Source: Candidatus Woesearchaeota archaeon (lineage in GTDB: Archaea > Nanobdellota > Nanobdellia > Woesearchaeales > SM23-78). Taken from it: DNA of 55,869 nt. The notes beneath the pieces are model-generated. The model saw nothing but the letters and a program-made list of their open reading frames with translations. It was not told where the DNA came from and searched no databases. Positions 36,546 to 54,845 of the stretch are shown in pieces. The position numbers were made by a program, and so were the translations under genes. Every line of letters starts with the position of its first letter. The stretch's first letter is position 1. Location: NCBI GenBank assembly GCA_016933095.1, contig JAFGBP010000069.1, positions 1 through 55,869 on the forward strand. Direction: 5' to 3'.

Positions 36546-37400
36546 CTACCAAATCTTGCTTTTCTTCTTGCCGCTGTATTGCTCCCTTATCTGCTGCGAG
36601 AAGACTGCAAGCCCGATCCCTGCACCGAGTGCCAGGATGAATCCTATGGCGATGTATAGTGGCACGTTAGGCTTGGAAGGCTCTACAGGGTACTCTGCGT
36701 AGCCGATTATCTTGACATCGGCGCTCTTCTCCTGGGCCATTATGCTGGCTTCTTCACGCCTATTGAGCAAGTAGTCGTATATCTTCTGCTTTGCGCTCAT
36801 CTCCCGAACAAGGGCTTCATGGGCTATCCTGTCATCAATTGTGGTCGTGGAGTTGATGTTCATGCTCTGGTTCAGGAACTCCAGGTGCGCCTTGGTCATC
36901 TCGTTGAGCTCGAACTCGTAGAACGAAATCTGCTCGGTTATGAAGTTGCTGACGTCCTGGGCTTCCAAGACCTTCTCTTCGCTGCTGTAGTTGACGTAAG
37001 ACCTTGCAATTAGGTTCGCGATTGCCATTGCCTTTTCAGGGTCATATGCCTGGACTGTTATCTCTATGACGTTCGAGTCCTTCAGGATCTCGGTGTTCAC
37101 CTTGTATCCATCTACCCCTTGGGTGGTGTATACAGGACTCATGATTACTGGGCTCATTATGAGGTATGTTTGGGTCTCCAAGTCAACCTTTGGTGCAATC
37201 TTTCCAAGGACGCTGCTTATCTGGTCTCCTCCGCTTACCATGATCATGCTGCTAGTCTCATAGACTGGGGGGGTAGTCATGGTGAAGATCAGGACTAATC
37301 CGAACACCACTAGGAATCCGAGAAGTGCAGCGACCCAGTTGTCACCTACAATCTTCAGATAATCGAAAAATTCAAGTTCATCATCGCTCATTGGAATCAA
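36546..37400 (-). CDS. Wzz-like polysaccharide chain-length determinant protein.
   Basis: N-terminal TM helix followed by PPVYETSSMIMVSG (Wzz motif), a long helical periplasmic-type region, and a C-terminal TM helix PLYIAIGFILALGAGIGLAVF. Confidence 0.75.
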   Translation of the reverse strand: MIPMSDDELEFFDYLKIVGDNWVAALLGFLVVFGLVLIFTMTTPPVYETSSMIMVSGGDQISSVLGKIAPKVDLETQTYLIMSPVIMSPVYTTQGVDGYKVNTEILKDSNVIEITVQAYDPEKAMAIANLIARSYVNYSSEEKVLEAQDVSNFITEQISFYEFELNEMTKAHLEFLNQSMNINSTTTIDDRIAHEALVREMSAKQKIYDYLLNRREEASIMAQEKSADVKIIGYAEYPVEPSKPNVPLYIAIGFILALGAGIGLAVFSQQIREQYSGKKKSKIW

Positions 37401-37592
37401 ATCCTCCTTTTTAAAGGCAGAAAAGCCCTTCTATTTTTATAGTTATTGAATTTTTGCCTCCTTTTAGTGAGAACTTTAGGGTTAATCCCTTGTTTGGGCC
37501 AGAACCAGCAATCCAATAGTATTCCTAGGCATCTTATGCCTGTTGTCATCCCTCTATGGGGGTTGAAAAAATATTATGAAAGAATGTTGTTA

Positions 37593-38123
37593 TTATCGCT
37601 TCCTCAGGTAAAGCATGCCGAGTGTCCCTACTATGATGGCTGCTCCCAGGGTCAGCGTGCTGAATTCCGGAACCCCACCAGTCGTTGGCGGGGTACTGGT
37701 GATGCTTGGCATCTTGCCGCAAAGCAGGATTGCGCTCAGGTCTTTGTCGACGCATACTGTTCGGTAGTCATAGACCTTGTGCGGGAGTGGGAAGCCGCTC
37801 CAATGCCATGAGTCTTTATTCTTCTCTTTCCAGCATTGCTCCCAGGCGTCAATCGTGCCCGAGGTTCCACCGGAAAAGGTCTTGATATCAGTTCCTGCCT
37901 TTGCGACTACTTTTAATGCTGCTGGGTCTGACTCCCAATCGGCGCTCTGTGCGTCTCCTGATACGTCGGTGTTGGATCCACTTCTCTCGGATTCTTTCTC
38001 CCATCCATCGTGGTATTCCCACTTGGCGACTTCAATGTACCCAGTTCCGCATTTGAATGAGCACGCGCTCGCTACGGTCACCAGTAGGAGGGCGACGATC
38101 AAATAGCTCAATATCTTCCTCAT
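37593..38123 (-). CDS. PEF-CTERM sorting-domain protein (secreted; mature domain of unknown function).
   Basis: Signal MRKILSYLIVALLLVTVASA. C-terminus GGVPEFSTLTLGAAIIVGTLGMLYLRKR followed by the stop. This is the tripartite signal: PEF motif, TM helix, basic tail. Confidence 0.85.
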   Translation of the reverse strand: MRKILSYLIVALLLVTVASACSFKCGTGYIEVAKWEYHDGWEKESERSGSNTDVSGDAQSADWESDPAALKVVAKAGTDIKTFSGGTSGTIDAWEQCWKEKNKDSWHWSGFPLPHKVYDYRTVCVDKDLSAILLCGKMPSITSTPPTTGGVPEFSTLTLGAAIIVGTLGMLYLRKR

Positions 38124-38154
38124 TGTTCCACCCTTGTGTCTTCTCCTTTTTTTT

Positions 38155-38604
38155 TTATCTTCTTCTGAGCGTGAGTATTCCTGCCGTTCCGATCACGACT
38201 GCTGCAAGAAGCGTGAATGTTGAGAACTCTGGCACTCCGTTGCCTGGGTCCTCGTCGTCACCGCCAATTGTCTGGCAGAATGTTATGTGCGAGACGTCTT
38301 GTCCGCAGCTTGTTGAGAAGTCCTTTTCTCCTGCGCTGTAGCCGCTCGTGTAGTCGGTGTATTCGCACTTGTCGCCGCTTTTGACCCTCACGACGTCTGA
38401 TGCGTTCATCCGTACTGTCCAGCTGTCTCCGTTGTCTTCGACAAGCGAGAATCCTGAGCAGCTTGGGCCTTCGGTGGCTCCGCCGCCTTCTATCTTACAT
38501 TGGAATATTAACCCGTAGTCTGCGCATTCACTGCTGGGGCTTCCTCCTGCAAGAACTGTTGTGGCCAGAATGAGTGCCATCATAATAAATACTGCTATTT
38601 TCAT
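38155..38604 (-). CDS. PEF-CTERM sorting-domain protein.
   Basis: Signal MKIAVFIMMALILATTVLAG. C-terminus GNGVPEFSTFTLLAAVVIGTAGILTLRRR followed by the stop. Confidence 0.85.
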   Translation of the reverse strand: MKIAVFIMMALILATTVLAGGSPSSECADYGLIFQCKIEGGGATEGPSCSGFSLVEDNGDSWTVRMNASDVVRVKSGDKCEYTDYTSGYSAGEKDFSTSCGQDVSHITFCQTIGGDDEDPGNGVPEFSTFTLLAAVVIGTAGILTLRRR

Positions 38605-38716
38605 ATTACAATCCCCCGATTATTGTTCCCTCACCAGCTTTTTTTTGAAAAATATGATTGTTATTCTCTTGTTTTCGTGTGTGAAAAATGAAATACTTTA
38701 TAAGATTTTGCTTTTC

Positions 38717-39208
38717 TTAGTGCTTTCGTAGGTAGAGTACGCCTAGAAGTCCTAGTGCGACTGCTGCTCCCAGTGTGAGTGTTGAGAACTCTGGTACGCC
38801 TGCGCCTGGTCCGATAAGGTTATGGCTGCCGGTTATTCCGTCTCCTGGCGAGCTTGGTGCCCTTCCGCACATGGTGATCTTTGCGATCCCGTCTGCTTCG
38901 ACTGTTTCTGAGCTGGCGACTCCGTTGTAGTCGTGGGTCTCGTTCGCTGTTGCAACGATCACTCCTGCGATGCTTGTGCTTGAGGTCCAGTTTGCTTCTT
39001 GGTTGTCTCCTACGACGTTTGTCGTGTAGCCGCCGGCTTCGTCAATCTTGACGTAGCTGCTGCCCATGTAGTCCCATTGGGCGACTGCAAAGTCGTATCC
39101 GAGCTCTGCGCAGTCAGCGTCCATTGTTGATGGTGGAAGCTGTTGTATTGCGCTTGCGCTTGATACTATTAGCAGTGCTGCGAGGACGTAGCTTAGTATT
39201 GCTTTCAT
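38717..39208 (-). CDS. PEF-CTERM sorting-domain protein.
   Basis: Signal MKAILSYVLAALLIVSSASA. C-terminus GAGVPEFSTLTLGAAVALGLLGVLYLRKH followed by the stop. Confidence 0.85.
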   Translation of the reverse strand: MKAILSYVLAALLIVSSASAIQQLPPSTMDADCAELGYDFAVAQWDYMGSSYVKIDEAGGYTTNVVGDNQEANWTSSTSIAGVIVATANETHDYNGVASSETVEADGIAKITMCGRAPSSPGDGITGSHNLIGPGAGVPEFSTLTLGAAVALGLLGVLYLRKH

Positions 39209-39625
39209 TTTGTTTTCAATCCCCCAAAACTTAAGATTTTATGTTGTGGATGGTCCTTTCCTTTATAAAGGTTTCTTTTATTTCACTACTTCTGGATAGA
39301 GAATGACTTTCCTCCAGATTTTGGGTGACAAATCTCCAGAAATTGACCGGTTTCTTCGGAGATCTGGTTCTTTTAGTCTGACGGGCTATGTGAATCTGGT
39401 GATGCTTCTCAAGATATTCCTGCGCGGTGCTGTTTTGATATTGCAATATGGGGAGATTATTGGGGGTGGTTTGATCCTTCAAAAGAGCTAGGAAAGAATG
39501 GAACGCACCTTAAGCAATGCGTCGCGGTGGTGGCGAGAAAGCTTGCCATTATTGTTATTTTGATGTGTTGAATTGCCATGAATTATCGAAACATTTAAAT
39601 ATATTATTATCACTAGTTATTGAAT

Positions 39626-40147
39626 ATGTCAAAAATAAGTGATAATATTGCGAGTCTTTCGGAGAATGAAGTTCGAATCATTGCCGAACTTGAATTTAAG
39701 AAGAAATACTATTTTACAAGAGAAGATATCAAGCATCACTTTGACAAGAAAAGCAAAGTCAGCTATGCAATTCATCGGCTCATAGCAAAAAAAAGGATTG
39801 TAAAGCTTAACAGGAATAAGTATTGCCTCATCCCTATGAAAGCCAAGACCGGAAGATGGACTGATGACCCGTTCATAATCGCTGATGAGATGTTTGAAGG
39901 AAAAGATTACTACATCGGAGGATGGGCTGCCGCCCACTACTGGAAGCTCACAGAACAGATACCTATGAAAATTGAGATATTTACTAATAAAAGGAACGGA
40001 TCGTCGAAAACCCTTACAGAAACATTCATATTCAAGAAAACAACCCTGAAAAGAATAGATGAAGCAATAATTAGAACAATTTCCAATCACAGCTTCAAGA
40101 TCCTTAGCAAGAAGAGATCAAAACAATGGCTGAAAACAAGAAAATAA
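39626..40147 (+). CDS. AbiEi-like antitoxin/transcriptional regulator (type IV TA).
   Basis: N-terminal wHTH-like region EVRIIAELEFKKKYYFTREDIKHHF...SYAIHRLIAKKRIVKLNRNKYCLIP. It overlaps the downstream AbiEii-type gene by 22 nt. Confidence 0.65.
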   Translation: MSKISDNIASLSENEVRIIAELEFKKKYYFTREDIKHHFDKKSKVSYAIHRLIAKKRIVKLNRNKYCLIPMKAKTGRWTDDPFIIADEMFEGKDYYIGGWAAAHYWKLTEQIPMKIEIFTNKRNGSSKTLTETFIFKKTTLKRIDEAIIRTISNHSFKILSKKRSKQWLKTRK

Positions 40148-40929
40148 GCTTTCTTGAAGTTGATAATAAAAAATCAACCATCAAGGAACTACTCGAAGAA
40201 GAACTATTGCAGATCATGGCAGATCGCGGATTTGCAAGAGCACTAACCCTAAAGGATTACTACATCTCAATAATTCTCTATCTGCTAAAAGACGTGAAAG
40301 GGATCTGTTTCAAAGGAGGCACGGCACTGCAAAAAACGCTTCTGGACTATTCAAGACTTAGCGAAGACATAGACTTCACACTAACAAGGGATCTAAACAA
40401 AGTGAAAGAAGAGATAATCCGAATCCTGAATGACTCAAAGCTCTTCGGAAAAATCGACAAGGACAAGGATGTTACCAAATTTACCAGGCTAATAGCACCA
40501 TACTCTTCAAGTCTTGGGCGAGGAGAGATATTTCTTGACCTGAACGAAAGAGGAAAACTGCTCCTAAAACCAGAGCTACTGGATATGAAGCATTTCTATC
40601 CAAACATTCCAAAATACAACTTCCTGTGCTTGAATAGGAAAGAGATGATTGCAGAGAAAGTTGCTGCGGCTATCGGCAGGAACAAGCCCAGAGATCACTA
40701 TGATATATACCAGATCATAAAGCATAAGATTCCCGTAGATATGTCTTTGGTTGAGAAGAAATGCAAGCAGTCTGGAGATGAATTTGACATTACAAAGATG
40801 TTCAACAGGGCCAAGAAACGCCACAAAAGATGGAACGCAGACATGATCCCGTTATTGGCCGAAGATGTCAAGTTCCAGGAAGTCATGAAGACACTGGCTG
40901 ATCATTTTGATCTCAAATCATATAGATGA
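40126..40929 (+). CDS. Nucleotidyltransferase AbiEii/AbiGii toxin family protein (DUF1814).
   Basis: FKGGTALQKTLLDYSRLSEDIDFT is the family's GGTAL...S.D.D nucleotidyltransferase motif. KPRDHYDIYQI matches the R.RD..D motif. Confidence 0.8.
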   Translation: MAENKKISFLEVDNKKSTIKELLEEELLQIMADRGFARALTLKDYYISIILYLLKDVKGICFKGGTALQKTLLDYSRLSEDIDFTLTRDLNKVKEEIIRILNDSKLFGKIDKDKDVTKFTRLIAPYSSSLGRGEIFLDLNERGKLLLKPELLDMKHFYPNIPKYNFLCLNRKEMIAEKVAAAIGRNKPRDHYDIYQIIKHKIPVDMSLVEKKCKQSGDEFDITKMFNRAKKRHKRWNADMIPLLAEDVKFQEVMKTLADHFDLKSYR

Positions 40930-40966
40930 ACCAATTTCAAAGTAGCGATGGCTTTCAGAAACGTAA

Positions 40967-41239
40967 TTATCTTCGATATGCTGTGTCGTGGTGCTGCAGA
41001 TCCATGAAGCTTATGGTCTTGCTGTTCTCATAAATCTTGAATGTGAGGATGAAGTGAGAGTCGATGTGCACTCTTTTGAAGTCTTTTAGTTCATAGCTCA
41101 GGTGCTTGTATCGCCCAGGTTCGGCGCTTTTCATGACCTCTTCTATCTTGCTGATGGTTGCTTCGTATCTTCTCTTGTCTCGTTTGTATAGTTTCTTCAG
41201 GATCCTGACTAGTTTCTCGCTTCTCTGAAGTCTATACAT
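40967..41239 (-). CDS. RelE/ParE-superfamily type II toxin.
   Basis: 90 aa. KKLYKRDKRRYEATISKIEEV...KHLSYELKDFKRVHIDSHFILTFKI fits the RelE-like layout. It overlaps the upstream antitoxin gene by 8 nt. Confidence 0.7.
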   Translation of the reverse strand: MYRLQRSEKLVRILKKLYKRDKRRYEATISKIEEVMKSAEPGRYKHLSYELKDFKRVHIDSHFILTFKIYENSKTISFMDLQHHDTAYRR

Positions 41240-41477
41240 TCTCTATCTCCTTTCTTAGCTCGTCAATGCTCGTGAACGCCTTGAATTTCCCTTTCTCTAT
41301 CTTTTTGAGCTCTTCTTTGTATTCGGGCCTGAGGCTGGCTTCAAGGAGTGTGTCTCCATATTGGCTTATTATGAAGTTCACGGCGTCTGATTTGTTCTTC
41401 AGGCCGTATTTCCCTCTTACAATCGTGATGAGCCTGTCTTCTCGTTCTCCTAATCTTATTATCGCTTGTACCATCAT
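41232..41477 (-). CDS. Type II antitoxin, partner of the RelE-like toxin.
   Basis: 81 aa. The N-terminal beta-strand/helix IIRLGEREDRLITIVRGKYGLKNKSDAVNFII is RHH/DUF2683-like. Its position and the 8-nt overlap are typical of TA pairs. Confidence 0.6.
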   Translation of the reverse strand: MMVQAIIRLGEREDRLITIVRGKYGLKNKSDAVNFIISQYGDTLLEASLRPEYKEELKKIEKGKFKAFTSIDELRKEIENV

Positions 41478-41634
41478 TTATCTACCTCGTTATGTCTTAT
41501 TATGTTTCATAATAAAACATAACTATTTATAATGATTTCGCTTTGCATCTTTCTTTAGACTTAGAAGGTTTATAATGCCTGCGGGGCAATGTCTAGTGGG
41601 TCCTGTGCTTTCTTTCGAAGAATACGAAAATCTT

Positions 41635-42963
41635 TCAGTACCTGCCCTTTGTCATCAGGATGGCTGGTATGGTCTTGAGTATTATCTGGATGTCAAGGAC
41701 GAGTGACATGTGCTTTACATAATAGATGTCGTAGAGGACTGCCTTGTCGAAGTTCAGCTCATGCCTTCCGTTGACCTGCCAAAGCCCTGTCAGGCCCGGC
41801 TTTACCTTGAAGCGCGCCATCCTCCAACCCTTGTAGTTATGGAGCTCTGTCTGGAGGTGAGGCCTCGACCCCACTATCGACATGTCTCCCTTGAAGATGT
41901 TTATGAGCTGTCCCAGCTCGTCGATGCAGGTCCTCCTTATGAACTTGCCTACCTTCGTGACTCTCGGGTCGTCCTTCATCTTGAAGATGCCCTTGACCTC
42001 GTTCTTGAACTTGGCATTGTCTGTGAAGTGGTCTGAGGCCCTCATCGACCTGAACTTGTAGAGCATGAATGGCTTCAGGTTCTTTCCAAGGCGCTCGTGC
42101 TTGTAGAATACTGGCCCTGGAGAGCCGATCTTTATGGCTATTGCAAGCATGAGGAAGAGTGGGGATAGCACGACTAATGCCGTTCCGGATGCTATGATGT
42201 CGAACAGCCTCTTGAAGAACTGGTATCCCTTGTTGTCTTCCCTGTGAGAGACGTTGATTATCGGGTAGTCCTTGAACTCATCCAATGCTACGGGGTCTAT
42301 GACTAGGTTTAGTATGCTTGATATTATCTTCCATTCTATGTGGTCGTTCTTGATCATGAGCTCGAGCAGCTTGTCGTCTATTGACTCCATCTTGATGAAT
42401 ACGACCTGTGCCTTTTTGAGAGCTGCTTCTAGTTCTTGCAGGTTCTTGGTGATCTTGAATATCCTGTATCCTAGGTGCTTGTCCTTTAGCTTCTCTATCA
42501 GCTCGTCTTTCGGGTCTCCGAAGAAGACTGTCTTCCGGATGTCGTAGCCGTACTCTCGGAATAGCGATATGATCTTGCTGAGTATGGCCCTGCTGAGGGT
42601 GGTTGTCGGGATTGTGAGGGTCATTGCTATGATGAGGGTTGCCCAAAGAGTAATGTCTCTTGTGTCGAACATGAGTAGGAATATGACTAACACGAATAGT
42701 GTCATTCCGACCCCGTAGAGTATGCTCATGAAGTCGTTGTCGTCGAAGAGGTTCCTCTTCTCCTTGTATAGCATGAAGCTTGCGTATGAGAGGATGAGGA
42801 TTACCAGGGTGAACAGGAAGAATCTCTGGTAGAAGAGGCTTGTGTAGTCGAGGCCGGTTATTAATGCTCCTGCCATTGCTGAGATTAGGAATGCTATCAG
42901 GTCTGAGATGTATAGGAGTATGTAGAAGTACTTCTTTTTTCCGTGGAAAAAGTCTAGTATCAT
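41635..42963 (-). CDS. Polyprenyl-phosphate sugar-phosphate transferase (WbaP/EpsB-like 'bacterial sugar transferase' family).
   Basis: N-terminal TM block. C-terminal FKRLFDIIASGTALVVLSPLFLMLAIAIKIGSPGPVFYKHERLGKNLKPFMLYKFRSM...DPRVTKVGKFIRRTCIDELGQLINIFKGDMSIVGSRP...KPGLTGLWQVNGR. Confidence 0.88.
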   Translation of the reverse strand: MILDFFHGKKKYFYILLYISDLIAFLISAMAGALITGLDYTSLFYQRFFLFTLVILILSYASFMLYKEKRNLFDDNDFMSILYGVGMTLFVLVIFLLMFDTRDITLWATLIIAMTLTIPTTTLSRAILSKIISLFREYGYDIRKTVFFGDPKDELIEKLKDKHLGYRIFKITKNLQELEAALKKAQVVFIKMESIDDKLLELMIKNDHIEWKIISSILNLVIDPVALDEFKDYPIINVSHREDNKGYQFFKRLFDIIASGTALVVLSPLFLMLAIAIKIGSPGPVFYKHERLGKNLKPFMLYKFRSMRASDHFTDNAKFKNEVKGIFKMKDDPRVTKVGKFIRRTCIDELGQLINIFKGDMSIVGSRPHLQTELHNYKGWRMARFKVKPGLTGLWQVNGRHELNFDKAVLYDIYYVKHMSLVLDIQIILKTIPAILMTKGRY

Positions 42964-45234: not shown

Positions 45235-45264
45235 GTTATTCCGTCATCCTTACTTTATCAATCA

Positions 45265-45918: not shown

Positions 45919-45919
45919 A

Positions 45920-48456: not shown

Positions 48457-49818
48457 CTATTCACCTTTCAATGTTTTCTTTTTCGAGTGGTTCTTGTCCT
48501 CTATGTTGCACTTGAATGCGATCTTCTTTCCGTTGCTCTCCACAGGGAACTTCTTAGTGAACTTTATGTTGAGGTTCCGGCATCCGAGCGTCTTCTTGAT
48601 TATCTTCGAGATTGCACTTATATCATTTCTAGTTATCTTTTCTGATTGCACTATGTTGAGATCTGTTGTGTCTATAGTCTGCTGGACGACTTGGAATTCT
48701 CCAATGTTTAGCTGGCTCTTCTCGACGAGCTCTTTAATCAGGCCTCCGCTTATCTTCTCGTATTTTCTGTTGCGCAGTATCTCGTATATCCTTCCGATTC
48801 TGATGGAGAACTCGGAGAAGGGGTGATTGGAACCAGATTTTGTCCTCTTGTTCATCATGCCGACATCCCCTATCTGATACCTTATCAGCGGCATTCCGTA
48901 GCTTTCCAATGAGGTGATGAGAATGTTGTCTTTGCTGTCCAGCTCTATGATGATGAAGTCATCTGAGCTGTGCATGACATAGTTCAGGTTCTCTATGGCT
49001 ATCGAAGGTATCTCTGTGGCTCCGTAGTGGTCTATGACTTGGCATCCAAATGTCTTCTCTATGAATTCCCTGTGATTAAGGCTTTCTGCAGTGGTGATTA
49101 TTTTCTTGAGCTGGTGGATATTCAGGCCTCTTTGTTCTATGAGTTTTGCCAGTTCATATATCATCCCAGCGAATCCGTACATGTAGTCCGGCTTGAACTT
49201 GTTGAACTCGTTCTTGATCCATTCTTCAAGCTCTTCGTCGGTGTACTTGAAAACATTGAACCTGATGCTTCTCTTGCATACCTCCGGGATAATAGAATCC
49301 ATGGCCTTTTTCAGGGGCGTCTTGTGCGGCTCAATCTCTCCCCATATCCAAGCGATTTTGTCCCCTGGTTCGACTCCCACCTGGTTGAGGTCTCTCATCC
49401 AGATGGCATTAGATATCTCAAAATACCGCTGGTCCTTGAATACGGTCACTTTGTTTCCGGTGGACCCTCCGGAGTGATGGGTCAGGATCTTAAACTTCTT
49501 ATGGCTCTTCAGCCGGTTTAGGTTGTCCTCTATTCTCTTCTTTGTCAGTATTGGTATCTTCTGAAGGTCATCCATGGAATCAATCTTGTCTGGGTCGATT
49601 CCTTCTTTGTCGAAAACTTCCCTGTAATAATCTGTCGTGTCGTATGCGTGCCTGAGTATCTTCCTCAGCCTGTCGAGCTGATACTTCCTGATCGCATTAT
49701 GGTCCATCCTCAGGTTCCTTTTGTACCTGTAATAGTGCAGGAATCTCAAGTCGCCTTCCAAAAGATATCTTGCCGGAAGGAGTATTTTGCTGTATATCTG
49801 GCTTATGAATCTCATCAT
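48457..49818 (-). CDS. Adenylate-forming enzyme of the phenylacetate-CoA ligase / CapK / F390-synthetase family.
   Basis: THHSGGSTGNKVTVF (P-loop-like AMP motif), YGATE, and the overall PaaK-like length of 453 aa. Confidence 0.75.
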   Translation of the reverse strand: MMRFISQIYSKILLPARYLLEGDLRFLHYYRYKRNLRMDHNAIRKYQLDRLRKILRHAYDTTDYYREVFDKEGIDPDKIDSMDDLQKIPILTKKRIEDNLNRLKSHKKFKILTHHSGGSTGNKVTVFKDQRYFEISNAIWMRDLNQVGVEPGDKIAWIWGEIEPHKTPLKKAMDSIIPEVCKRSIRFNVFKYTDEELEEWIKNEFNKFKPDYMYGFAGMIYELAKLIEQRGLNIHQLKKIITTAESLNHREFIEKTFGCQVIDHYGATEIPSIAIENLNYVMHSSDDFIIIELDSKDNILITSLESYGMPLIRYQIGDVGMMNKRTKSGSNHPFSEFSIRIGRIYEILRNRKYEKISGGLIKELVEKSQLNIGEFQVVQQTIDTTDLNIVQSEKITRNDISAISKIIKKTLGCRNLNIKFTKKFPVESNGKKIAFKCNIEDKNHSKKKTLKGE

Positions 49819-49819
49819 T

Positions 49820-50770
49820 TCACCTATTCCTTATGAGTCTCGATATACTGGCCGGCATCATGAGCAAGGCTGTCTTCTTCAAGACATACGATGGCTCAAG
49901 CTTTCCCAGGTTTTGCAGGATTAGCTTCAATGCGACCTTCTTGTCGGTGTAGACTGCGAGGTTTATTATCGTCTTGAGGCCGTTGTATGACCCTTTCCCG
50001 TCTTTTATGCCTCTGGCCTTCATCTCGTTCTCCGGATCGAACTTGTCGTAGCTATCCTTCCCTGTCTTTCTTCTCTGCCAGTAGAATTCCTTTGCCTTCT
50101 CTGCAAGGAATGCCTGCTTCTCTGATTTAGTGGATGATATCCCTTCGTCATTTACCCTGTATTCTACAAGCGCTTCTGGGATGTTGTCTATCCCGTATCC
50201 TTTTGAGATAACATTCAGCATGAAATCGTAGTCCTGTGCAAACCTGAATTTCGTCCTGTACTGGAATTCCCTGCTGTTCCTGAACATCACTGACGAATGG
50301 ATTATATGGTTTCTCCTGACGATCTTCCTGAGATTGTTTTCCTTCCCGCAGATGCTGTCTATCCTGAACCTCGTTCCCTTGCTGGATATCCCTGTTGCAT
50401 AGCTCCCGACAAGGAAGATATCGGGGTGTGATTCAAGGTATTTGAGTTCCTTCTCCAGCCTGGTAGGATACGAGTTGTCGTCTGAGTCCTGGATTGCGAC
50501 GTATTTCCCTCTGGCTCTTGACAGCCCCCTGTTCCTTGTCTCAGCGGCCCCCATGTTCTTGCTGTTCCTCAGCACCTTTATCCTTTTGTCTGACTTGGCA
50601 TATTTGAGGATAGTCTTCAGGGAGCCGTCTGTGGATCTGTCGTCTATGATTATGAGCTCCCATTCTTTCATAGTTTGGCTAAGGACGCTCTCTATTGATG
50701 CTTTCAGGAATGCATCCTGATTGTACACTGCCATGATTACAGTCACCATGGGAGTCTTCATGGGCAGCAC
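49820..50770 (-). CDS. Glycosyltransferase family 2.
   Basis: VTVIMAVYNQDAFLKASIESVLSQTMKEWELIIIDDRSTDGS...YVAIQDSDD (DxD). Confidence 0.85.
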   Translation of the reverse strand: MLPMKTPMVTVIMAVYNQDAFLKASIESVLSQTMKEWELIIIDDRSTDGSLKTILKYAKSDKRIKVLRNSKNMGAAETRNRGLSRARGKYVAIQDSDDNSYPTRLEKELKYLESHPDIFLVGSYATGISSKGTRFRIDSICGKENNLRKIVRRNHIIHSSVMFRNSREFQYRTKFRFAQDYDFMLNVISKGYGIDNIPEALVEYRVNDEGISSTKSEKQAFLAEKAKEFYWQRRKTGKDSYDKFDPENEMKARGIKDGKGSYNGLKTIINLAVYTDKKVALKLILQNLGKLEPSYVLKKTALLMMPASISRLIRNR

Positions 50771-51846
50771 CTCTTTAGGTATGATGCCTCATAGATGCGC
50801 GGAGGCACTGTTCTTTTGTCTGACACCTTCACATCCAATAATCCTGTTCTGCGGTCAAGATGCAAATCGAGTTGCTTATTTATCCATGCAGATTCAAGGC
50901 TCTTGTCTTCTGTAGACCTGTTTGTGAATGCTCCTATAGCGCACGCCATTTCAAAACCAGTCATGTTATATCTGAACATGAACCTGTTCATGCTCTCTGC
51001 CGGAAGATGCTTCTTGTTCGCCTCTTCCAGGGAATTCGCGATAAGTTTTATTATCCGGTCATCCCTCCAGACATTTCCTTGCGGATCTTCCTTTCGTATT
51101 AGCGCTAGTCCCAGTAAGGTGAATGATAAGTATCCTATGCTCTCTTCCCAGAGTTGCTTTCTCTTCCTTATCCGTTGGACTTTCCTGAGAAGATACTGGT
51201 GGGGCTGGCCGATCAACACGTTTTCGTCTATCCACATGTCCATTATCTTTCCGCTCCTCCTGATCGTGCGAGGAAGCCTGTCCATGAACATAGAATATCT
51301 CTTCAAGAGAGTCTTGTTCTTGAGTGCTCTTCCTGCTCTCAAGTGCATCAATGCAAACCAGACCTGCTGGTTCATCGAATGGTTGATTCCCAGGCTTTCC
51401 CCTTCCTTGCTATGCATATTCCAGAGGCCTAGGTTGGTATCAAAGCAATGGTTCTGGAGTACGGTTTCTGCAGTGCGCAGGGCTTCTTTTGACTTGAGCA
51501 CAGAGCCTGCTGCAAGGAGGGCTTCTACCGCCCATGCCTGCCCTATGAGCCCGTTGACCTCGATTTCTTTTCGGCTGCTCTCGCAGCACCTGAATGCGTG
51601 TCCTCCATGTCTCTCAAAGCTGTCAATGAGATACTTGGCTGATTTCATCGCTCCTAACTTGTATCTTGGCTGCTTGGTCATCTTGTATGTCTCGAGAAGC
51701 ACCAGAGTCTGGTGAGCTGTGATCCTTACGGGCGTGTCTTTGTTTTTCCAGGGGCCATTATGCCCTGCAGGAAAGCTTCCATCCTTTAGCTGGATCTTCA
51801 AGGCACGATCCGCATTCTTCACCATGATGTTGTCCAAGTCAGTCAT
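50758..51846 (-). CDS. Hypothetical protein, helical-repeat (possibly alpha/alpha-toroid-like), embedded in the glycan operon.
   Basis: 362-aa ORF that overlaps both neighbours (4 nt and 13 nt). QLKDGSFPAGHNGPW...NGLIGQAWAVEALLAA...LGLWNMH resembles terpenoid-cyclase/glycoside-hydrolase-like toroid repeats. This is a weak call. Confidence 0.6.
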   Translation of the reverse strand: MTDLDNIMVKNADRALKIQLKDGSFPAGHNGPWKNKDTPVRITAHQTLVLLETYKMTKQPRYKLGAMKSAKYLIDSFERHGGHAFRCCESSRKEIEVNGLIGQAWAVEALLAAGSVLKSKEALRTAETVLQNHCFDTNLGLWNMHSKEGESLGINHSMNQQVWFALMHLRAGRALKNKTLLKRYSMFMDRLPRTIRRSGKIMDMWIDENVLIGQPHQYLLRKVQRIRKRKQLWEESIGYLSFTLLGLALIRKEDPQGNVWRDDRIIKLIANSLEEANKKHLPAESMNRFMFRYNMTGFEMACAIGAFTNRSTEDKSLESAWINKQLDLHLDRRTGLLDVKVSDKRTVPPRIYEASYLKRCCP

Positions 51847-53486
51847 TTTTCCAGATGCCTCCTTATGAACTCCATCTCTGTTATCAGGTGAAATCTCGTC
51901 CTTATCTCGCTTAAGGAACGCATATTGATGCTTCCAGTCACGTCGATTCCGGCAATCCTCGTTCTTGAGTAATCATATGAGCTGAGGAAATCCCGGCTCA
52001 GCATCTCCCAATCAAGCATTCCCTGGAAACTGATGGCAGGATACAGCGGTATCTTAATGCCTGTCTTGTTGTACACCTTCCATTTGAGCGCTAGTATGGA
52101 TGACTTGATCTGCTTGAGCCTGCTTCCGTCATGAAGATTATATGGCTTTCTTTCGGGCCTTATCTTAGCAAGATCCGGATGGAGCGTCTGTATGAATAAG
52201 TTATAGAATTTGCTGTCTTGAAGGTGCTCTACAGGGATCTTTAATGCGAACTCCACCACATCTATGTCTGCGAATGGAGAGAAGGTCTTGTACTTGCCGT
52301 AATAGTCAAAAAAGGCACTGTTCTTGATGAAGTGAAGCTGCCGGTTCTCGAAGTTGAATGCTTCACAGGTCTTCCATGCCACGGTCTTCTTTGAGCCATT
52401 GTAGTGTTGGAGATCCTTCTTGACTGCCGACATTAGATTGTCCGATATCCTAACTGACTTACTCTTTAGTTCATATCTTCCTCTTATATGAGCTACAGGG
52501 TCTCCTTCTGTGAGCTCGCCTTCTTTTATGTGGCTTCCGAAGATGTTATCTCCGTTGAAACCTGTGAGTATTGATCTTGTCTTCGGGAGATCCTCAGTCA
52601 CGGAAGCATACGGTGAATATAGGATGTTCAGCAATGGCTTCTTCGCCACATGCTCTTCTATCCTGTTCCAGGCCTGTTTCCTGACAGCTATGAGTTTTAG
52701 GTCTATCTTGAGGCTCTTAGCGATCTGCTTGGCGATTTTGAATGCATCCGAGCCTTTGTGGCTTATCACGAACGCTCTCAATGGGATATTTTCAGTCAAT
52801 GCATACCTCGCTACGATCCTGCTGTCAAGACCTCCGGAGATACCTATTGACATCGCTTCATTGTTCATGCTCTTTATTCTCTTCATAGCCTTATGCATCA
52901 GGGAATCTAGCTTGATCAATGCTTTTTTTATGTCAAAATCATTGTCTTCTGCATGTCCGTATCTCCAGAATGACTTCGTCTTCGTGGCTCCACCTTTCCG
53001 GATTGTCTTTATGGTGGCATAGGGGAGTATCTTTACCTCTTTCAGGAAGGTCCTGTCCAGAAGGCTGTGTTCATACAGCACCATCTCTGCACACGCGATC
53101 TTATCTAGATTCTTTTCACCCCATAGCCTCTCTTTGAGAATCTGCGTGAAATCAGTCGCGATCATTATCTCTTTCCTGCTGTGCATGTAGTAGACATCTC
53201 CAAGTCCGAGCTGGTCGTTGAAGATTGTTATCTCTGCTTTATCCTTGTCTATGATGCATCCGCAGTACCTTCCTTTGAATATTCGGAGGTCAGAGTTGAG
53301 GCCTTTTCTTGAGATCTCTGAGAAGAGATCTTCCGGATGCAGCTTGATGTCAGGATATAACTGGCCCTCGAGCAACATCAGCTTTCTAGCTCTCTTCAGC
53401 TCAATGGTCTCGGGCCCTTTAAAGTAACTGAACTGGCCGAATTGTTTCCATTTTCCGGTCTTCTTGTCTGTCGTTGTTATCATCAT
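51843..53486 (-). CDS. Asparagine synthetase (AsnB)-like amidotransferase without the N-terminal catalytic Cys.
   Basis: PP-loop SIGISGGLDSRIVARYA. N-domain remnant GRYCGCIIDKDKAEITIFNDQLGLGDVYY. The N-terminus is MMITTTDKK rather than MCG. Confidence 0.8.
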   Translation of the reverse strand: MMITTTDKKTGKWKQFGQFSYFKGPETIELKRARKLMLLEGQLYPDIKLHPEDLFSEISRKGLNSDLRIFKGRYCGCIIDKDKAEITIFNDQLGLGDVYYMHSRKEIMIATDFTQILKERLWGEKNLDKIACAEMVLYEHSLLDRTFLKEVKILPYATIKTIRKGGATKTKSFWRYGHAEDNDFDIKKALIKLDSLMHKAMKRIKSMNNEAMSIGISGGLDSRIVARYALTENIPLRAFVISHKGSDAFKIAKQIAKSLKIDLKLIAVRKQAWNRIEEHVAKKPLLNILYSPYASVTEDLPKTRSILTGFNGDNIFGSHIKEGELTEGDPVAHIRGRYELKSKSVRISDNLMSAVKKDLQHYNGSKKTVAWKTCEAFNFENRQLHFIKNSAFFDYYGKYKTFSPFADIDVVEFALKIPVEHLQDSKFYNLFIQTLHPDLAKIRPERKPYNLHDGSRLKQIKSSILALKWKVYNKTGIKIPLYPAISFQGMLDWEMLSRDFLSSYDYSRTRIAGIDVTGSINMRSLSEIRTRFHLITEMEFIRRHLEK

Positions 53487-54754
53487 TGTACGGTCATCTC
53501 CTTATGCAGCAGCCTGAAATACACGATGTATGATGCTATGGCTGTGTACGTTGCACATATTAGCGTGCTGTATATCACTCCCATGAATCCGAATCTCCAT
53601 ATGAATAGGATATCAAGGGATATATTCAGAAAACCAGCAATTACCATTATCTTGAGCATCTCTTTGGCTTTTCCAGTGGGTATGAAGTGTGCTTGGCTTA
53701 GGAATGTTGAGGCAAACCTGAATGGCACCACAAATATGAGCAGGCCGAACATGAGCCTGGTTTCGACTGTGAAGTATTTGGTAAAGAATGACGAGATGAT
53801 TTCTGGGATGATGAAGTATGCCGCGACGCTTATTATCGTGGCTATGATCAGGACAATCCCTGTCTCCTCCAACATGTTCTTCTTGACGTCGTGGTGCTTT
53901 TTGAGAGTGTGTAACCTTGTTGTGTTTGGGGCTATTATTTGTCCGAATATGACGGCCGGCAGTATGATGAAATCAAACAGTCGCACCAGCACCTCGTAAT
54001 ACCCTATTTCTTTAAGGAACCCGAATTGCTTGAGGATGATTATGTCGGCTCTGCTGTACATGAAGAATGCGAATGATGATAGGCCGAGGATTATGCTGTA
54101 TGTGAGTATTTGTCTCAGCAGGTCTTTGTTTATCTTCCATTCTATCTCTTTTCTCATCCTTATGAATAAGAAGACTGCGAGGAGGATGAAGAAGATGTTC
54201 TGTGCGGCGATGGCCCCAAGGATGCTGAATTTCATTATCAGGAAGTAGGCTGATGCCACTGTGATTATGCCTGCCACGGTGGCGATGATAGAGAGTTCTT
54301 TGAACCTCTTCTGCCCTCGATAGATGCCATCAAGCACACTTGAGATTGGCAGGAAGAACAGGTATGGGATGTAGAACAGTATGAATCCATAGTTCTCTTT
54401 GAAGATCATTTTTCCGAAGATGAGGAGTGTGAGGGTTATCAGGGAGATGAGAGCTCCGACTGCAACTGTTGATGAGAACAGGATCTGCTTGGCTCCTTTT
54501 GTGTCTTTGGCCTCGGTCTCGGCTACGTATTTGGAGGTGGCTTGTGATATGCCGAAATCCCCGAATAGGGTGAGGAGGTAGGCAACTGCCGTGAGATAAG
54601 TATAGAGTCCAAACTGCTCTGGTTCCAGAAATTTTGTTGTGATCAGGAATGTCAGGAATGTGATTAGTTGTTTCCCGAATATCTGAAGGCTTCTCCAGAA
54701 GAAATTCTTCGTGTTTGCTTTGTTTTTGTGATATATTCTCTTGAAATGTTTCAT
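53483..54754 (-). CDS. Wzx-like polysaccharide flippase (MOP superfamily).
   Basis: About 12 TM helices. N-terminal FFWRSLQIFGKQLITFLTFLITTKFLEPEQFGLY is typical of the Polysacc_synt family. It is the first gene of the operon. Confidence 0.8.
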   Translation of the reverse strand: MKHFKRIYHKNKANTKNFFWRSLQIFGKQLITFLTFLITTKFLEPEQFGLYTYLTAVAYLLTLFGDFGISQATSKYVAETEAKDTKGAKQILFSSTVAVGALISLITLTLLIFGKMIFKENYGFILFYIPYLFFLPISSVLDGIYRGQKRFKELSIIATVAGIITVASAYFLIMKFSILGAIAAQNIFFILLAVFLFIRMRKEIEWKINKDLLRQILTYSIILGLSSFAFFMYSRADIIILKQFGFLKEIGYYEVLVRLFDFIILPAVIFGQIIAPNTTRLHTLKKHHDVKKNMLEETGIVLIIATIISVAAYFIIPEIISSFFTKYFTVETRLMFGLLIFVVPFRFASTFLSQAHFIPTGKAKEMLKIMVIAGFLNISLDILFIWRFGFMGVIYSTLICATYTAIASYIVYFRLLHKEMTVQ

Positions 54755-54845
54755 CTTTACTACTAATTGATAAAGAAAATCGAGGTCTTTATAAAGTTTT
54801 TTGATTCCTGTCTCCGCAACCTTTAAATATGTTTATCCCTGAAGT

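What the first reader, a model, noticed from the sequence alone, without database searches (positions are those of the whole stretch)
36546..54754. Archaeosortase embedded in an 11-gene translationally coupled glycan operon beside PEF-CTERM cargo genes: an archaeal analogue of bacterial exosortase/EPS loci
Seen in the sequence:
- ORF 42960..44111 (-) is a polytopic membrane protein with SIGPPCSGIESMF (Cys245), VNILRLFLL (Arg292) and LFHTNIGW (His313). This Cys/Arg/His arrangement defines the exosortase/archaeosortase family.
- Its start overlaps the upstream GT4 gene by 14 nt. Its stop overlaps the start of the priming sugar-phosphate transferase by 4 nt.
- Eleven minus-strand genes from 54754 to 41635 are separated by -14 to +30 nt. 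In order they are: Wzx flippase, AsnB-like, unknown, GT2, CapK/PaaK-like ligase, O-antigen-ligase/Wzy-like, GT4, methyltransferase, GT4, archaeosortase, priming transferase.
- A Wzz-like gene (36546..37400) and three PEF-CTERM genes (37593..39208) lie just downstream.

Established knowledge: the combination of sortase, Wzz, priming transferase, AsnB-like amidotransferase, acyl-CoA-ligase-like enzyme, O-antigen-ligase-like protein and GT4s is the hallmark of bacterial PEP-CTERM/exosortase A (EpsH) EPS loci. As far as I know, archaeosortases have mainly been described as processing S-layer-type cargo, not as embedded in such operons.

Inference: cargo cleavage/anchoring and synthesis of a dedicated glycan or glycolipid are co-expressed here as one system.
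Basis: partly seen in the sequence, partly recalled or inferred. Interest (0 to 1): 0.85.

Follow-up and report, generated by a model that had tools for sequence, protein, structure and literature searches.

The report
DPANN archaeosortase inside a polysaccharide operon
A tiny-celled (DPANN/Woesearchaeota-type) archaeon carries a protein-sorting enzyme wedged between the first two enzymes of a surface-sugar pathway, next to three small proteins bearing its recognition tail. The arrangement is conserved in a whole clade of relatives and is even fused into single genes in some of them, so it is an undescribed archaeal counterpart of bacterial exosortase/EPS systems.

Summary
ORFs, motifs, gene order and junctions (-14 to +30 nt) are as described.

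- **Sortase.** 42960..44111(-) is a true exosortase/archaeosortase family protein. It scores 56 bits on TIGR04178 (cutoff 23) and has invariant Cys245/Arg292/His313. It fails every curated subfamily model: ArtC 52 of 100 bits, XrtE 47 of 150, XrtA 26 of 208.
- **Cargo.** The three cargo tails carry a stereotyped signal, [VM]PEFSxxTLG.A..G.GLGL.[FY]LRK. They score below the PEF-CTERM cutoff.
- **Host.** The window is archaeal (Cbf5) and its relatives are DPANN/Woesearchaeota MAGs.
- **Linkage is not accidental.**
  - In a 12-member sortase clade, 11 have the priming transferase directly downstream, often with a 4-nt overlap. Most are followed by VPEFS cargo and a Wzz-like gene.
  - Neighbouring clades are still linked to glycan genes. 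The other half of the family is not.
  - Natural fusions exist: sortase plus priming transferase (the same ORF in two separate assemblies), and sortase plus Wzx in both orders.
  - The cargo genes lie 2.4 kb from the operon, behind two toxin-antitoxin insertions, and probably have their own promoter.
  - Co-transcription and chemistry are untested.

Verdict: a new variant of a known kind (an exosortase-in-EPS locus), undescribed for archaea in the searchable literature.

The parts
53483..54754 (-). Wzx-type flippase, first gene of the operon
   Evidence: PF01943 scores 83.7 bits (cutoff 28.2). It overlaps the next gene by 4 nt.
54788..54795 (-). TATA-like box (TTTATAAA), 34-41 nt upstream of the Wzx ATG; putative archaeal promoter
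   Evidence: Read directly from the sequence. This is an inference, not tested.
51843..53486 (-). AsnB-like ATP-dependent amide-forming enzyme that lacks the N-terminal glutaminase Cys
   Evidence: PF00733 scores 33.9 bits (cutoff 21). TIGR01536 gives 70.8 bits and TIGR03108 gives 46 bits, both below cutoff. The N-terminus reads MMITTT.
50758..51846 (-). 362-aa protein of unknown function
   Evidence: No Pfam, NCBIfam or PDB match.
49820..50770 (-). GT2 glycosyltransferase; probable true start is the ATG at 50761
   Evidence: NCBIfam EpsE and TuaG hits at 1e-42 and 1e-39, below equivalog cutoffs. Junction.
48457..49818 (-). CapK/PaaK-like adenylate-forming ligase
   Evidence: NCBIfam DVU1553-family and PaaK hits. 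PDB phenylacetate-CoA ligases at 5.6e-15. Orthologues in related loci carry PF27533 CapK_C.
47143..48456 (-). Wzy / O-antigen-ligase-like polymerase
   Evidence: PF04932 scores 56.6 bits (cutoff 31.7).
45920..47146 (-). GT4 glycosyltransferase
   Evidence: Multiple NCBIfam GT4 hits.
45265..45918 (-). SAM-dependent methyltransferase
   Evidence: PF08241 scores 30.8 bits (cutoff 21.2).
44098..45234 (-). GT4 glycosyltransferase of the DUF1972/Cps2T type (likely second-step transferase); conserved upstream neighbour of the sortase
   Evidence: Best NCBIfam hit is Cps2T at 130 bits, below cutoff. Orthologues at 50-72% identity lie upstream of the sortase, directly adjacent in most loci, in L001, L005, L009-L015 and L019. 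They carry PF09314.
42960..44111 (-). Archaeosortase of an unnamed DPANN subfamily. Catalytic candidates are Cys245, Arg292 and His313. It has 8 TM helices and a unique Lys/Arg-rich C-terminal tail.
   Evidence: TIGR04178 scores 56 bits (cutoff 23) and PF09721 scores 51.5 bits (cutoff 25.7). Invariant residues. AF2 model has pLDDT 85.7. Topology.
41635..42963 (-). Polyprenyl-phosphate hexose-1-phosphate (priming) transferase; overlaps the sortase stop by 4 nt
   Evidence: TIGR03025 scores 335.5 bits (cutoff 295.55). The same 4-nt overlap occurs in L001, L003, L009, L011 and L015.
40967..41477 (-). DUF2683-like antitoxin plus YafQ/RelE-like toxin. An insertion that interrupts the module, not part of the system.
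   Evidence: TIGR00053 scores 68.5 bits and PF10884 scores 24.5 bits, both below cutoff. Absent at this position in L001 and L003.
39620..40929 (+). AbiEi/AbiEii type IV toxin-antitoxin pair. An insertion, not part of the system.
   Evidence: PF08843 scores 95.2 bits and PF13338 scores 23.1 bits.
38717..39208 (-). Cargo 3: signal peptide, small beta domain, linker and VPEFS-CTERM tail. A TATA-like box lies about 55 nt upstream.
   Evidence: AF2 model has pLDDT 81.
38155..38604 (-). Cargo 2 with VPEFS-CTERM tail
37593..38123 (-). Cargo 1 with VPEFS-CTERM tail
36546..37400 (-). Wzz-like polysaccharide co-polymerase (two TM helices, no kinase domain)
   Evidence: PF13807 GNVR scores 42.7 bits (cutoff 27.7). 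The top NCBIfam hit is TIGR03007, the XrtA chain-length determinant, at 71 bits (below cutoff). It holds a conserved position after the cargo in L001, L003, L009, L011, L012 and L013.
55333..55851 (+). Double-HTH protein, candidate regulator (tentative)
   Evidence: Homologues lie beside sortase loci L001, L020, L024 and L029. Only weak HTH Pfam hits.

Best explanation
This is a cell-surface assembly locus of a DPANN (Woesearchaeota-type) archaeon. An unnamed subfamily of the exosortase/archaeosortase family is a fixed component of a Wzx/Wzy-dependent polysaccharide gene cluster.

**Proposed working, with the basis for each step.**
1. The priming transferase puts a hexose-1-phosphate on a polyprenyl phosphate at the cytoplasmic face (family membership shown).
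2. The Cps2T-like GT4, the second GT4 and the GT2 extend the unit. The methyltransferase, the AsnB-like enzyme and the CapK-like ligase decorate it, probably with amide-linked groups (inferred).
3. Wzx flips the unit, Wzy polymerises it and the Wzz-like protein sets chain length (family membership shown, roles inferred).
4. The three small Sec-exported proteins stay held in the membrane by their C-terminal [VM]PEFS-helix-RK tail (sequence shown).
5. The archaeosortase has Cys, Arg and His at the outer ends of TM6-8. It recognises the tail inside the membrane, cleaves at the PEF motif through a thioacyl intermediate, and hands the new C-terminus to an acceptor (inferred from the family).
6. The sortase gene sits between pathway steps 1 and 2 throughout a clade, and is naturally fused to the priming transferase or to Wzx elsewhere. 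I therefore think it works in physical contact with that machinery.
7. The most likely acceptor is an amine on the flipped lipid-linked glycan or on the polymer. That would be analogous to sortase A with lipid II, or to PorU with A-LPS.

The result would be a surface glycan layer carrying or anchoring these proteins, plausibly for attachment.
For: **Family membership.** Scores above cutoff and invariant Cys/Arg/His. The model is a confident 8-helix fold with the three residues at the outer membrane face.

**Sorting signal.** All 30 cargo homologues, plus those in related loci, carry one fixed-length tail that is conserved inside the helix.

**Synteny.** GT4, sortase and priming transferase lie together in 11 of 12 members of one clade at 41-69% identity, mostly followed by cargo and Wzz. 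The sister clades are still glycan-linked.

**Fusions.**
- P0132 is a sortase plus Bac_transf fusion, found as the identical ORF in two separate assemblies with the same neighbours.
- P0138 is Wzx plus sortase, and P0157 is sortase plus Wzx.

**Pathway completeness.** The priming transferase, Wzx, Wzy and the co-polymerase all pass curated cutoffs.

**Possible amine sources.** Related loci carry polysaccharide deacetylases, and this one carries AsnB-like and CapK-like enzymes.

**Host.** Archaeal, shown by Cbf5, with extended synteny to a Woesearchaeota MAG.
Against: - No expression, proteomic or biochemical data exist for any member. No exosortase has a demonstrated acceptor.
- The only characterised relative, ArtA, anchors cargo to a membrane lipid, not to a glycan.
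- In this window the cargo genes lie 2.4 kb away, behind two toxin-antitoxin modules, with their own TATA-like box.
- Each fusion is a single 90% cluster, and two of the three were seen on one contig only.
- Half of the wider family has the same kind of PEF tail nearby but no glycan genes, so the enzyme can work without such a cluster.
- The window has no deacetylase, and no sugar-amine step is identified.
Confidence: 0.6

Rival explanations
1. The sortase and cargo are as above, but anchoring follows the ArtA pattern. The cleaved cargo is attached to a membrane lipid head group. The glycan cluster is linked only indirectly: by co-regulation, by glycosylating the Gly/Asn/Ser-rich linker of the cargo, or by building the layer in which the cargo sits.
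For: - ArtA substrates are lipid-anchored, and this needs PssA/PssD-type lipid enzymes.
- Distant family members with PEF-type tails lack glycan neighbours.
- The cargo genes here have their own putative promoter.
- The cargo has a low-complexity linker typical of glycosylated stalks.
Against: Indirect linkage does not easily explain three things:
- the fixed position of the sortase between pathway steps 1 and 2;
- the recurrent 4-nt overlaps with the priming transferase;
- the in-frame fusions to the priming transferase and to Wzx.
Confidence: 0.3
2. The EpsH-like protein is not a protein-sorting protease here. It is a structural or export component of the polysaccharide machinery, and the neighbouring tail-bearing proteins are ordinary tail-anchored membrane proteins.
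For: - EpsH was first named as an EPS-locus membrane protein.
- The fusions are to glycan-pathway membrane proteins.
- No protease activity has been shown for this clade.
Against: - Cys, Arg and His are invariant from DPANN proteins to bacterial XrtE.
- A stereotyped tripartite tail co-occurs with the enzyme in dozens of loci, including loci without glycan genes.
- Mutagenesis of ArtA supports catalysis by the conserved Cys and Arg.
Confidence: 0.06
3. The adjacency is accidental or an artefact. Either a generic cell-envelope island collected these genes by chance, or the contig is a bacterial or chimeric mis-assembly.
For: - Polysaccharide loci are mosaic, and this one contains mobile toxin-antitoxin insertions.
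- GC content is slightly lower than in the rest of the window.
- A few related records are titled as CPR bacteria.
Against: - The order is conserved in at least 11 independent genomes at 41-69% sortase identity, and those genomes form one clade.
- The window carries archaeal Cbf5 and RtcA.
- It shares flanking genes outside the cluster with a Woesearchaeota MAG.
Confidence: 0.03

Closest known systems
Bacterial exosortase A (XrtA/EpsH) with PEP-CTERM, in EPS loci (Haft 2006, PMC1569441)
   Same: - The sorting enzyme belongs to the same superfamily and is embedded in a polysaccharide locus.
- That locus also holds a chain-length determinant, a priming transferase, an AsnB-like amidotransferase, an adenylate-forming ligase, an O-antigen-ligase-like protein and GT4s.
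- The cargo has a tripartite tail with a P-E-x motif abutting the helix.
   Different: - The host is an archaeon without an outer membrane.
- The XrtA model gives 26 of 208 bits, and every XrtA-associated accessory model is far below cutoff.
- The motif is VPEFS, not PEP.
- There are 1-3 cargo genes beside the enzyme rather than many scattered ones (only the flanks were examined).
- Natural fusions to the priming transferase and to Wzx are seen here.
Archaeosortase C (ArtC, TIGR03762) with PEF-CTERM (TIGR03024), from Methanosarcinales and ANME-2
   Same: - It is archaeal, with a P-E-F motif followed by a helix and a basic cluster.
- ArtC is one of the two best-scoring subfamily models.
   Different: - The score is 52 bits against a cutoff of 100, and only the C-terminal ~100 residues align.
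- Clade members score 33-51 bits.
- The tails score 11-16 bits against a cutoff of 23.
- The lineage is different (DPANN).
- The genomic context of true ArtC could not be examined here.
Exosortase E / VPEID-CTERM (XrtE, TIGR04162)
   Same: - It is the nearest named outgroup by profile search, at 53-67 bits.
- The motif begins V-P-E, and Cys/Arg/His are shared.
   Different: - XrtE is bacterial and is fused to a CPBP/CAAX protease domain that is absent here.
- The score is 47 bits against a cutoff of 150.
- I know of no glycan-operon embedding for XrtE (from memory, not tested).
Archaeosortase A (ArtA) with PGF-CTERM, from Haloferax volcanii
   Same: - Same superfamily, and the likely mode of action is cleavage of a C-terminal tripartite signal at the outer membrane face.
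- It is the only experimentally studied relative.
   Different: - No ArtA model hit at E<=0.01, and the motif is PGF.
- ArtA has many substrates, including the S-layer glycoprotein.
- Its anchor is a lipid, and it is associated with AglB/PssA/PssD rather than a Wzx/Wzy cluster.
- The critical residues shown for ArtA are Cys173, Arg214 and Arg253.
Sortase A with lipid II, and T9SS PorU with A-LPS (mechanistic analogues only)
   Same: A C-terminal signal is cleaved by a transpeptidase, and the protein is joined to an amine on a polyprenyl-linked or lipid-linked glycan.
   Different: The folds and families are unrelated. The analogy is my inference from gene order and fusions, not a tested property.

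Membership tests
Exosortase/archaeosortase family (TIGR04178, PF09721) | Scores above the curated family cutoffs | tested here: met
   TIGR04178 scores 56 bits (cutoff 23). PF09721 scores 51.5 bits (cutoff 25.7).
Exosortase/archaeosortase family (TIGR04178, PF09721) | Near-invariant Cys, Arg and His in the C-terminal signature region | tested here: met
   C245, R292 and H313 are invariant in 22 DPANN relatives. They stay invariant in an alignment with named XrtE proteins. Haft 2023 names Cys/Arg/His as the suspected triad.
Exosortase/archaeosortase family (TIGR04178, PF09721) | Polytopic protein with about 8 TM helices | tested here: met
   The AF2 model (pLDDT 85.7) is all-helical, with a small beta hairpin region before the Cys. 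Hydropathy gives 8 TM helices with both termini inside.
Exosortase/archaeosortase family (TIGR04178, PF09721) | Co-occurring proteins with a tripartite C-terminal signal (motif, helix, basic cluster) | tested here: met
   Three such proteins in the window. Others lie next to relatives in many loci. All 30 of 30 cargo homologues have the signal.
Exosortase/archaeosortase family (TIGR04178, PF09721) | Cysteine endopeptidase or transpeptidase activity on the signal | not testable with these tools
   Needs biochemistry or proteomics.
Archaeosortase C / PEF-CTERM system | ArtC model TIGR03762 at 100 bits or more | tested here: not met
   52.3 bits, covering residues 233-333 only. Relatives score 33-51 bits.
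Archaeosortase C / PEF-CTERM system | Cargo tails match TIGR03024 at 23 bits or more | tested here: not met
   11.3-16.2 bits. The literal PEF tripeptide is present.
Archaeosortase A / PGF-CTERM system | ArtA model hit and PGF motif in the cargo | tested here: not met
   No ArtA model among hits at E<=0.01. The tails read VPEFS.
XrtA / PEP-CTERM EPS system | XrtA model TIGR03109 at 208 bits or more | tested here: not met
   25.9 bits.
XrtA / PEP-CTERM EPS system | XrtA-associated accessory families at their cutoffs (TIGR03007, TIGR03013, TIGR03108, TIGR03088) | tested here: not met
   Scores against cutoffs are 71 of 279, 176 of 393, 46 of 817 and 68 of 409 bits. These are the same kinds of enzyme, not orthologues.
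XrtE / VPEID-CTERM system | TIGR04162 at 150 bits or more, and a fused CPBP protease domain | tested here: not met
   47 bits. There is no PF02517 domain, and the protein ends in a Lys/Arg-rich tail.
Wzx/Wzy-dependent polysaccharide pathway | Priming phosphoglycosyl transferase, Wzx flippase, Wzy polymerase and a co-polymerase, all present | tested here: met
   TIGR03025 scores 335.5 bits (cutoff 295.55), PF01943 83.7 (28.2), PF04932 56.6 (31.7) and PF13807 42.7 (27.7).
Single operon (translationally coupled transcript) | One transcript spanning 54754..41635 | not testable with these tools
   The sequence shows only same-strand genes, junctions of -14 to +30 nt, SD-like motifs and one upstream TATA-like box.

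The most novel reading that the evidence does not exclude
The archaeosortase is a transpeptidase whose second substrate is the flipped, polyprenyl-linked glycan unit made by its own operon. The nucleophile would be an amine installed by the AsnB-like or CapK-like enzymes, or by the deacetylases seen in relatives. DPANN cells would then build a protein-tipped or protein-anchoring polysaccharide. This would be an archaeal, non-homologous equivalent of sortase A with lipid II. It would also be the first concrete answer to why exosortases live in EPS loci, possibly serving attachment to host cells.
Probability: 0.3. Interest if true: 0.85.

Novelty: new variant of a known kind. Interest (0 to 1): 0.58.

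Why it matters
**The open question.** Exosortases were named in 2006 because they sit in bacterial EPS loci. Why a protein-sorting enzyme belongs there, and what it attaches its cargo to, is still unknown. In archaea the family has been discussed for halophiles and methanogens, as an S-layer or lipid-anchoring system.

**What this locus adds.**
- A sizeable DPANN branch of the family exists: 237 clusters at 50% identity score E<=1e-30.
- One clade in that branch is hard-wired into a Wzx/Wzy pathway.
- In that clade the sortase lies between the first two assembly steps.
- It has its own stereotyped VPEFS signal and one to three small dedicated cargo proteins.
- Natural fusions join it to the priming transferase and to the flippase.

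**Why that is useful.**
- The fusions point to the lipid-linked glycan machinery as the enzyme's working partner.
- The system is compact: one sortase, one small cargo and one priming transferase. That makes it a good candidate for heterologous reconstitution.
- DPANN archaea depend on surface contact with hosts, so an unrecognised surface glycan-and-protein system is relevant to their biology.
- Annotation pipelines have no subfamily model for either the enzyme or the signal.

Tried and rejected
- **Haft et al. 2012 (PMC3256604).** This paper defines ArtA-ArtE and PEF-CTERM. It is not held, so I could not check whether an EPS context was noted for ArtC.
- **Context of canonical ArtC in Methanosarcina.** This was not tested.
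- **Solved structures.**
  - Sequence and profile searches of the PDB found nothing for the sortase or the cargo.
  - Foldseek searches with both confident models found nothing at E<=0.001.
  - So the cargo fold gave no functional clue.
- **The 362-aa gene 50758..51846.** No family or PDB match.
- **Whole-genome cargo count.** Not possible. The window is the only contig holding this protein, and only 10-kb flanks of relatives are held.
- **Bacterial or chimeric origin.** Considered and rejected.
- **Fusions as sequencing errors.**
  - Rejected for P0132, which is the identical ORF in two assemblies.
  - Still possible for P0138 and P0157, each seen on one contig.
- **tRNA scan.** Run to look for an integration site near the toxin-antitoxin insertions. 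None was found.

Full report
**1. The observation**

Eleven minus-strand genes run from 54754 to 41635. Using the longest ORFs, their junctions are -4, -4, -13, +1, 0, -4, +1, +30, -14 and -4 nt.

- The -14 between the GT4 and the sortase depends on a TTG start. The first in-frame ATG gives +4, and the public gene call (P0001, 374 aa) starts three codons later still.
- The -13 becomes a 4-nt ATGA overlap with the ATG at 50761.
- Most genes are preceded by Shine-Dalgarno-like purine runs.
- A TTTATAAA box lies 34-41 nt upstream of the Wzx start. Another TATA-like box precedes the first cargo gene.

Family scans confirm the functional labels.
- Above curated cutoffs: Wzx (PF01943), the Asn_synthase domain, Wzy_C, a class I methyltransferase, the priming transferase (TIGR03025, 335.5 bits against 295.55) and the GNVR domain of the Wzz-like protein.
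- Clear at superfamily level: the GT2, the two GT4s and the PaaK/CapK-like ligase.
- The AsnB-like protein begins MMITTT, so it lacks the N-terminal glutaminase cysteine.

**2. The sortase**

ORF 42960..44111(-) scores 56 bits on the exosortase/archaeosortase signature TIGR04178 (cutoff 23). It scores 51.5 bits on PF09721 (cutoff 25.7).

Cys245, Arg292 and His313 are C236, R283 and H304 in P0001 numbering. They are invariant in 22 relatives down to 27% identity. They remain invariant when proteins named exosortase E are added. Haft (bioRxiv 2023) names Cys, Arg and His as the suspected triad of the family. For ArtA, mutagenesis has shown Cys173, Arg214 and Arg253 to be critical (PMC9263693).

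An AlphaFold2 model built on the alignment is confident (pLDDT 85.7). Hydropathy and the positive-inside rule give eight helices with both termini inside. They place the three residues at the outer ends of TM6, TM7 and TM8 (inference). No solved structure resembles the protein by sequence, profile or fold.

The enzyme is not a member of any curated subfamily.
- ArtC: 52 of 100 bits.
- XrtE: 47 of 150 bits.
- The 8TM_EpsH model: 30 of 106 bits.
- XrtA: 26 of 208 bits.
- No ArtA hit.

Ten relatives behave the same way. By profile search the nearest named outgroup is bacterial XrtE.

**3. Host and family size**

The window encodes an archaeal/eukaryotic-type Cbf5 (DKCLD, TruB and PUA domains) and RtcA. 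All close sortase homologues come from MAGs labelled Woesearchaeota, Nanoarchaeia, Nanoarchaeota or Pacearchaeota.

The best relative is JAFGGS010000016 (locus L001).
- It shares 69-72% identity for the GT4, the sortase and the priming transferase.
- It also shares flanking genes outside the cluster: an HTH protein, a large repeat protein and a 420-aa protein.

An exhaustive profile search of 1.84 billion representatives found 237 clusters at E<=1e-30 and 1291 at E<=1e-10. The branch is therefore sizeable, but it carries only the generic annotation.

**4. The cargo and its signal**

The three small ORFs have four parts:
- a signal peptide;
- an eight-stranded beta domain of about 80 residues with two invariant cysteines;
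- a disordered Gly/Asn/Ser/Pro linker;
- a C-terminal tail.

The tails hit the PEF-CTERM model only weakly, at 11-16 bits against a cutoff of 23.

A profile search found 30 homologues, all unnamed and all from DPANN-type sources. All 30 end in the same signal.

Over 37 tails the consensus is [VM]-P-E-F-S-x-x-T-L-G-[LAI]-A-[IV]-x-G-x-G-L-G-L-x-[FY]-L-R-K-[HQRK]. The length from Pro to the end is fixed at 25-26 residues, and conservation runs through the helix. By Haft's argument, that pattern is what an intramembrane processing enzyme would produce.

A second cargo type has a CarboxypepD_reg-like domain and carries the same tail in L005, L011, L013 and L019. PEF-type tails also lie near more distant family members. 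The cargo fold has no match in the PDB.

**5. Is the link to the glycan genes real?**

I collected 49 genome loci plus metagenome loci and scored their ORFs against the window's proteins.

On a neighbour-joining tree of the sortases, the window falls in a 12-member clade at 41-69% identity.
- Eleven members have the priming transferase directly downstream.
- The twelfth (L010) has a nucleotidyltransferase insertion there, and then the contig ends.
- The Cps2T/DUF1972-type GT4 lies upstream of the sortase in the members where the upstream flank could be read, directly adjacent in most of them.
- The 4-nt sortase/transferase overlap recurs in L001, L003, L009, L011 and L015.
- VPEFS cargo follows the transferase in L001, L003, L005, L009, L011, L012, L013 and L019.
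- A Wzz-like gene follows the cargo in L001, L003, L009, L011, L012 and L013. L019 has a Wzz-like gene further away on the opposite strand, and none was found in L005.

The sister clade (L006, L017, L018, L021) still has the sortase at the end of a glycan gene run, after a WecG-type transferase in L006. In two of these loci the priming transferase and a VPE[FY] cargo lie a few kb downstream.

A further clade (L020, L022, L023, L026, L028, L035) is also flanked by glycosyltransferase, flippase or ligase genes. The other half of the tree shows no glycan neighbours by this test.

The exhaustive search also turned up natural fusions.
- P0132 (749 aa) is sortase plus Bac_transf.
- P0138 (733 aa) is Wzx plus sortase.
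- P0157 (733 aa) is sortase plus Wzx.

P0132 is the identical ORF on contigs from two separately assembled samples. Both contigs have the same deacetylase, GT4 and fusion order, so it is not a random frameshift. The other two fusions rest on one contig each.

It is therefore not met, and the adjacency is ancestral to a clade.

**6. How this window differs from its relatives**

In L001 and L003 the cargo follows the transferase after about 300 nt. Here, 2.4 kb intervene. The inserted stretch carries a DUF2683/YafQ-like pair and an AbiEi/AbiEii pair, with a local GC dip. The window also has three cargo paralogues rather than one. The sortase has a unique Lys/Arg/Thr/Glu-rich C-terminal tail of about 50 residues, with low model confidence.

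**7. Mechanism**

*Shown.*
- Family membership of each enzyme.
- The invariant residues.
- The stereotyped signal.
- The conserved order.
- The fusions.

*Inferred.* The proposed sequence has four steps.
- A Wzx/Wzy-type pathway builds a decorated repeat unit on a polyprenyl carrier.
- The cargo is Sec-exported and held by its tail.
- The sortase cleaves at PEF through its cysteine.
- The new C-terminus is passed to an acceptor.

The sortase gene is fixed between steps 1 and 2 of unit assembly, and is fused elsewhere to the priming transferase or the flippase. I therefore favour physical association with that machinery, with an amine on the flipped lipid-linked glycan as the acceptor. Candidate amine sources are the AsnB-like and CapK-like enzymes here, and the polysaccharide deacetylases in L003 and L057.

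The main rival is ArtA-like lipid anchoring with only indirect linkage. It is supported by the one characterised relative, and by family members that lack glycan neighbours. I put the direct-acceptor step at about 0.3-0.4. I put the broader statement at about 0.6: one functional module, a genuine sortase and cargo pair, working with the glycan machinery.

**8. Comparison with the literature**

- Full-text searches found no paper that combines exosortase with Woesearchaeota.
- Papers that mention both archaeosortase and DPANN are general reviews.
- PEF-CTERM and ArtC appear only as domain counts in Methanosarcinales and ANME.
- Haft's 2023 text describes archaeosortases as occurring in halophiles and methanogens, and exosortases as frequent in EPS loci.
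- The 2012 paper could not be read, and the context of true ArtC was not examined. An earlier remark on an archaeal EPS context therefore cannot be excluded.

**9. Verdict**

It is an unnamed DPANN archaeosortase subfamily with its own VPEFS-type signal. The subfamily is built into a polysaccharide operon, which makes it a new variant of the known exosortase-in-EPS-locus theme. The fusions to the priming transferase and to Wzx add a new lead to the old question of what exosortases do in EPS loci. Interest is moderate to high. Experimental access is limited because the hosts are uncultivated, but the module is small enough to reconstitute.

Noticed in passing
window 32210-34852 (+) and 34928-36049 (+); L001 16065-19559 (-): Two repeat-rich secreted proteins (880 and 373 aa) end in a different tripartite tail: [VI]TGFSIKD, then a helix, then a basic cluster. 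A 1164-aa homologue sits beside the same locus in the closest Woesearchaeota MAG. This may be a second, unnamed C-terminal anchoring signal.
   Followed up: partly
window 55333-55851 (+): A 172-aa protein with two weak HTH regions lies divergent from the operon. It has homologues beside sortase loci L001, L020, L024 and L029, directly after the sortase in L024. It is a candidate regulator.
   Followed up: partly
window 39620-41477; L010 3395-4015; L012 3142-4240: Toxin-antitoxin or nucleotidyltransferase-type modules are inserted inside these loci at different points. Here they are AbiEi/AbiEii and a DUF2683/YafQ-like pair. In L010 and L012 they are NTP_transf_2 genes next to the sortase.
   Followed up: partly
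window 54846-55196 (+): A small Cys-rich secreted protein has a lipobox-like LLYGC after its signal sequence, so it is a possible archaeal lipoprotein. It has no family match.
   Followed up: no
window 51843-53486 (-): The AsnB-like protein keeps the synthetase domain but has no N-terminal Cys, and only a weak GATase_7 hit. It probably does not use glutamine.
   Followed up: no
P0166 (802 aa); L059 6212-6898: One family member is fused to a soluble C-terminal domain of about 480 residues with unknown function. The locus of the sortase-Wzx fusion has a separate Rce1-like CPBP protease nearby, which recalls the fused protease domain of XrtE.
   Followed up: no
L009, L013, L015, L017-L019, L021, L028, L039, L045, L048, L051, L052; L027, L042: Many related MAG records are titled 'uncultured Methanosarcinales archaeon', although their loci match DPANN ones. 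Two records are titled Patescibacteria or Kerfeldbacteria; both carry family members, and L042 also has PEF-type tails nearby. Mislabelling, mis-binning or transfer was not resolved.
   Followed up: no
L015 and L045; L025 and L031; L030 and L056: Single MAGs hold two family paralogues on different contigs. In the first pair, one is glycan-linked and the other is not, which suggests specialised sortases within one genome.
   Followed up: no
L024 11081-15279 (-): Six tandem genes for small proteins with [IV]PEF[SG] tails lie about 4 kb from a sortase at 38% identity. This is a larger local cargo array than in the window.
   Followed up: no
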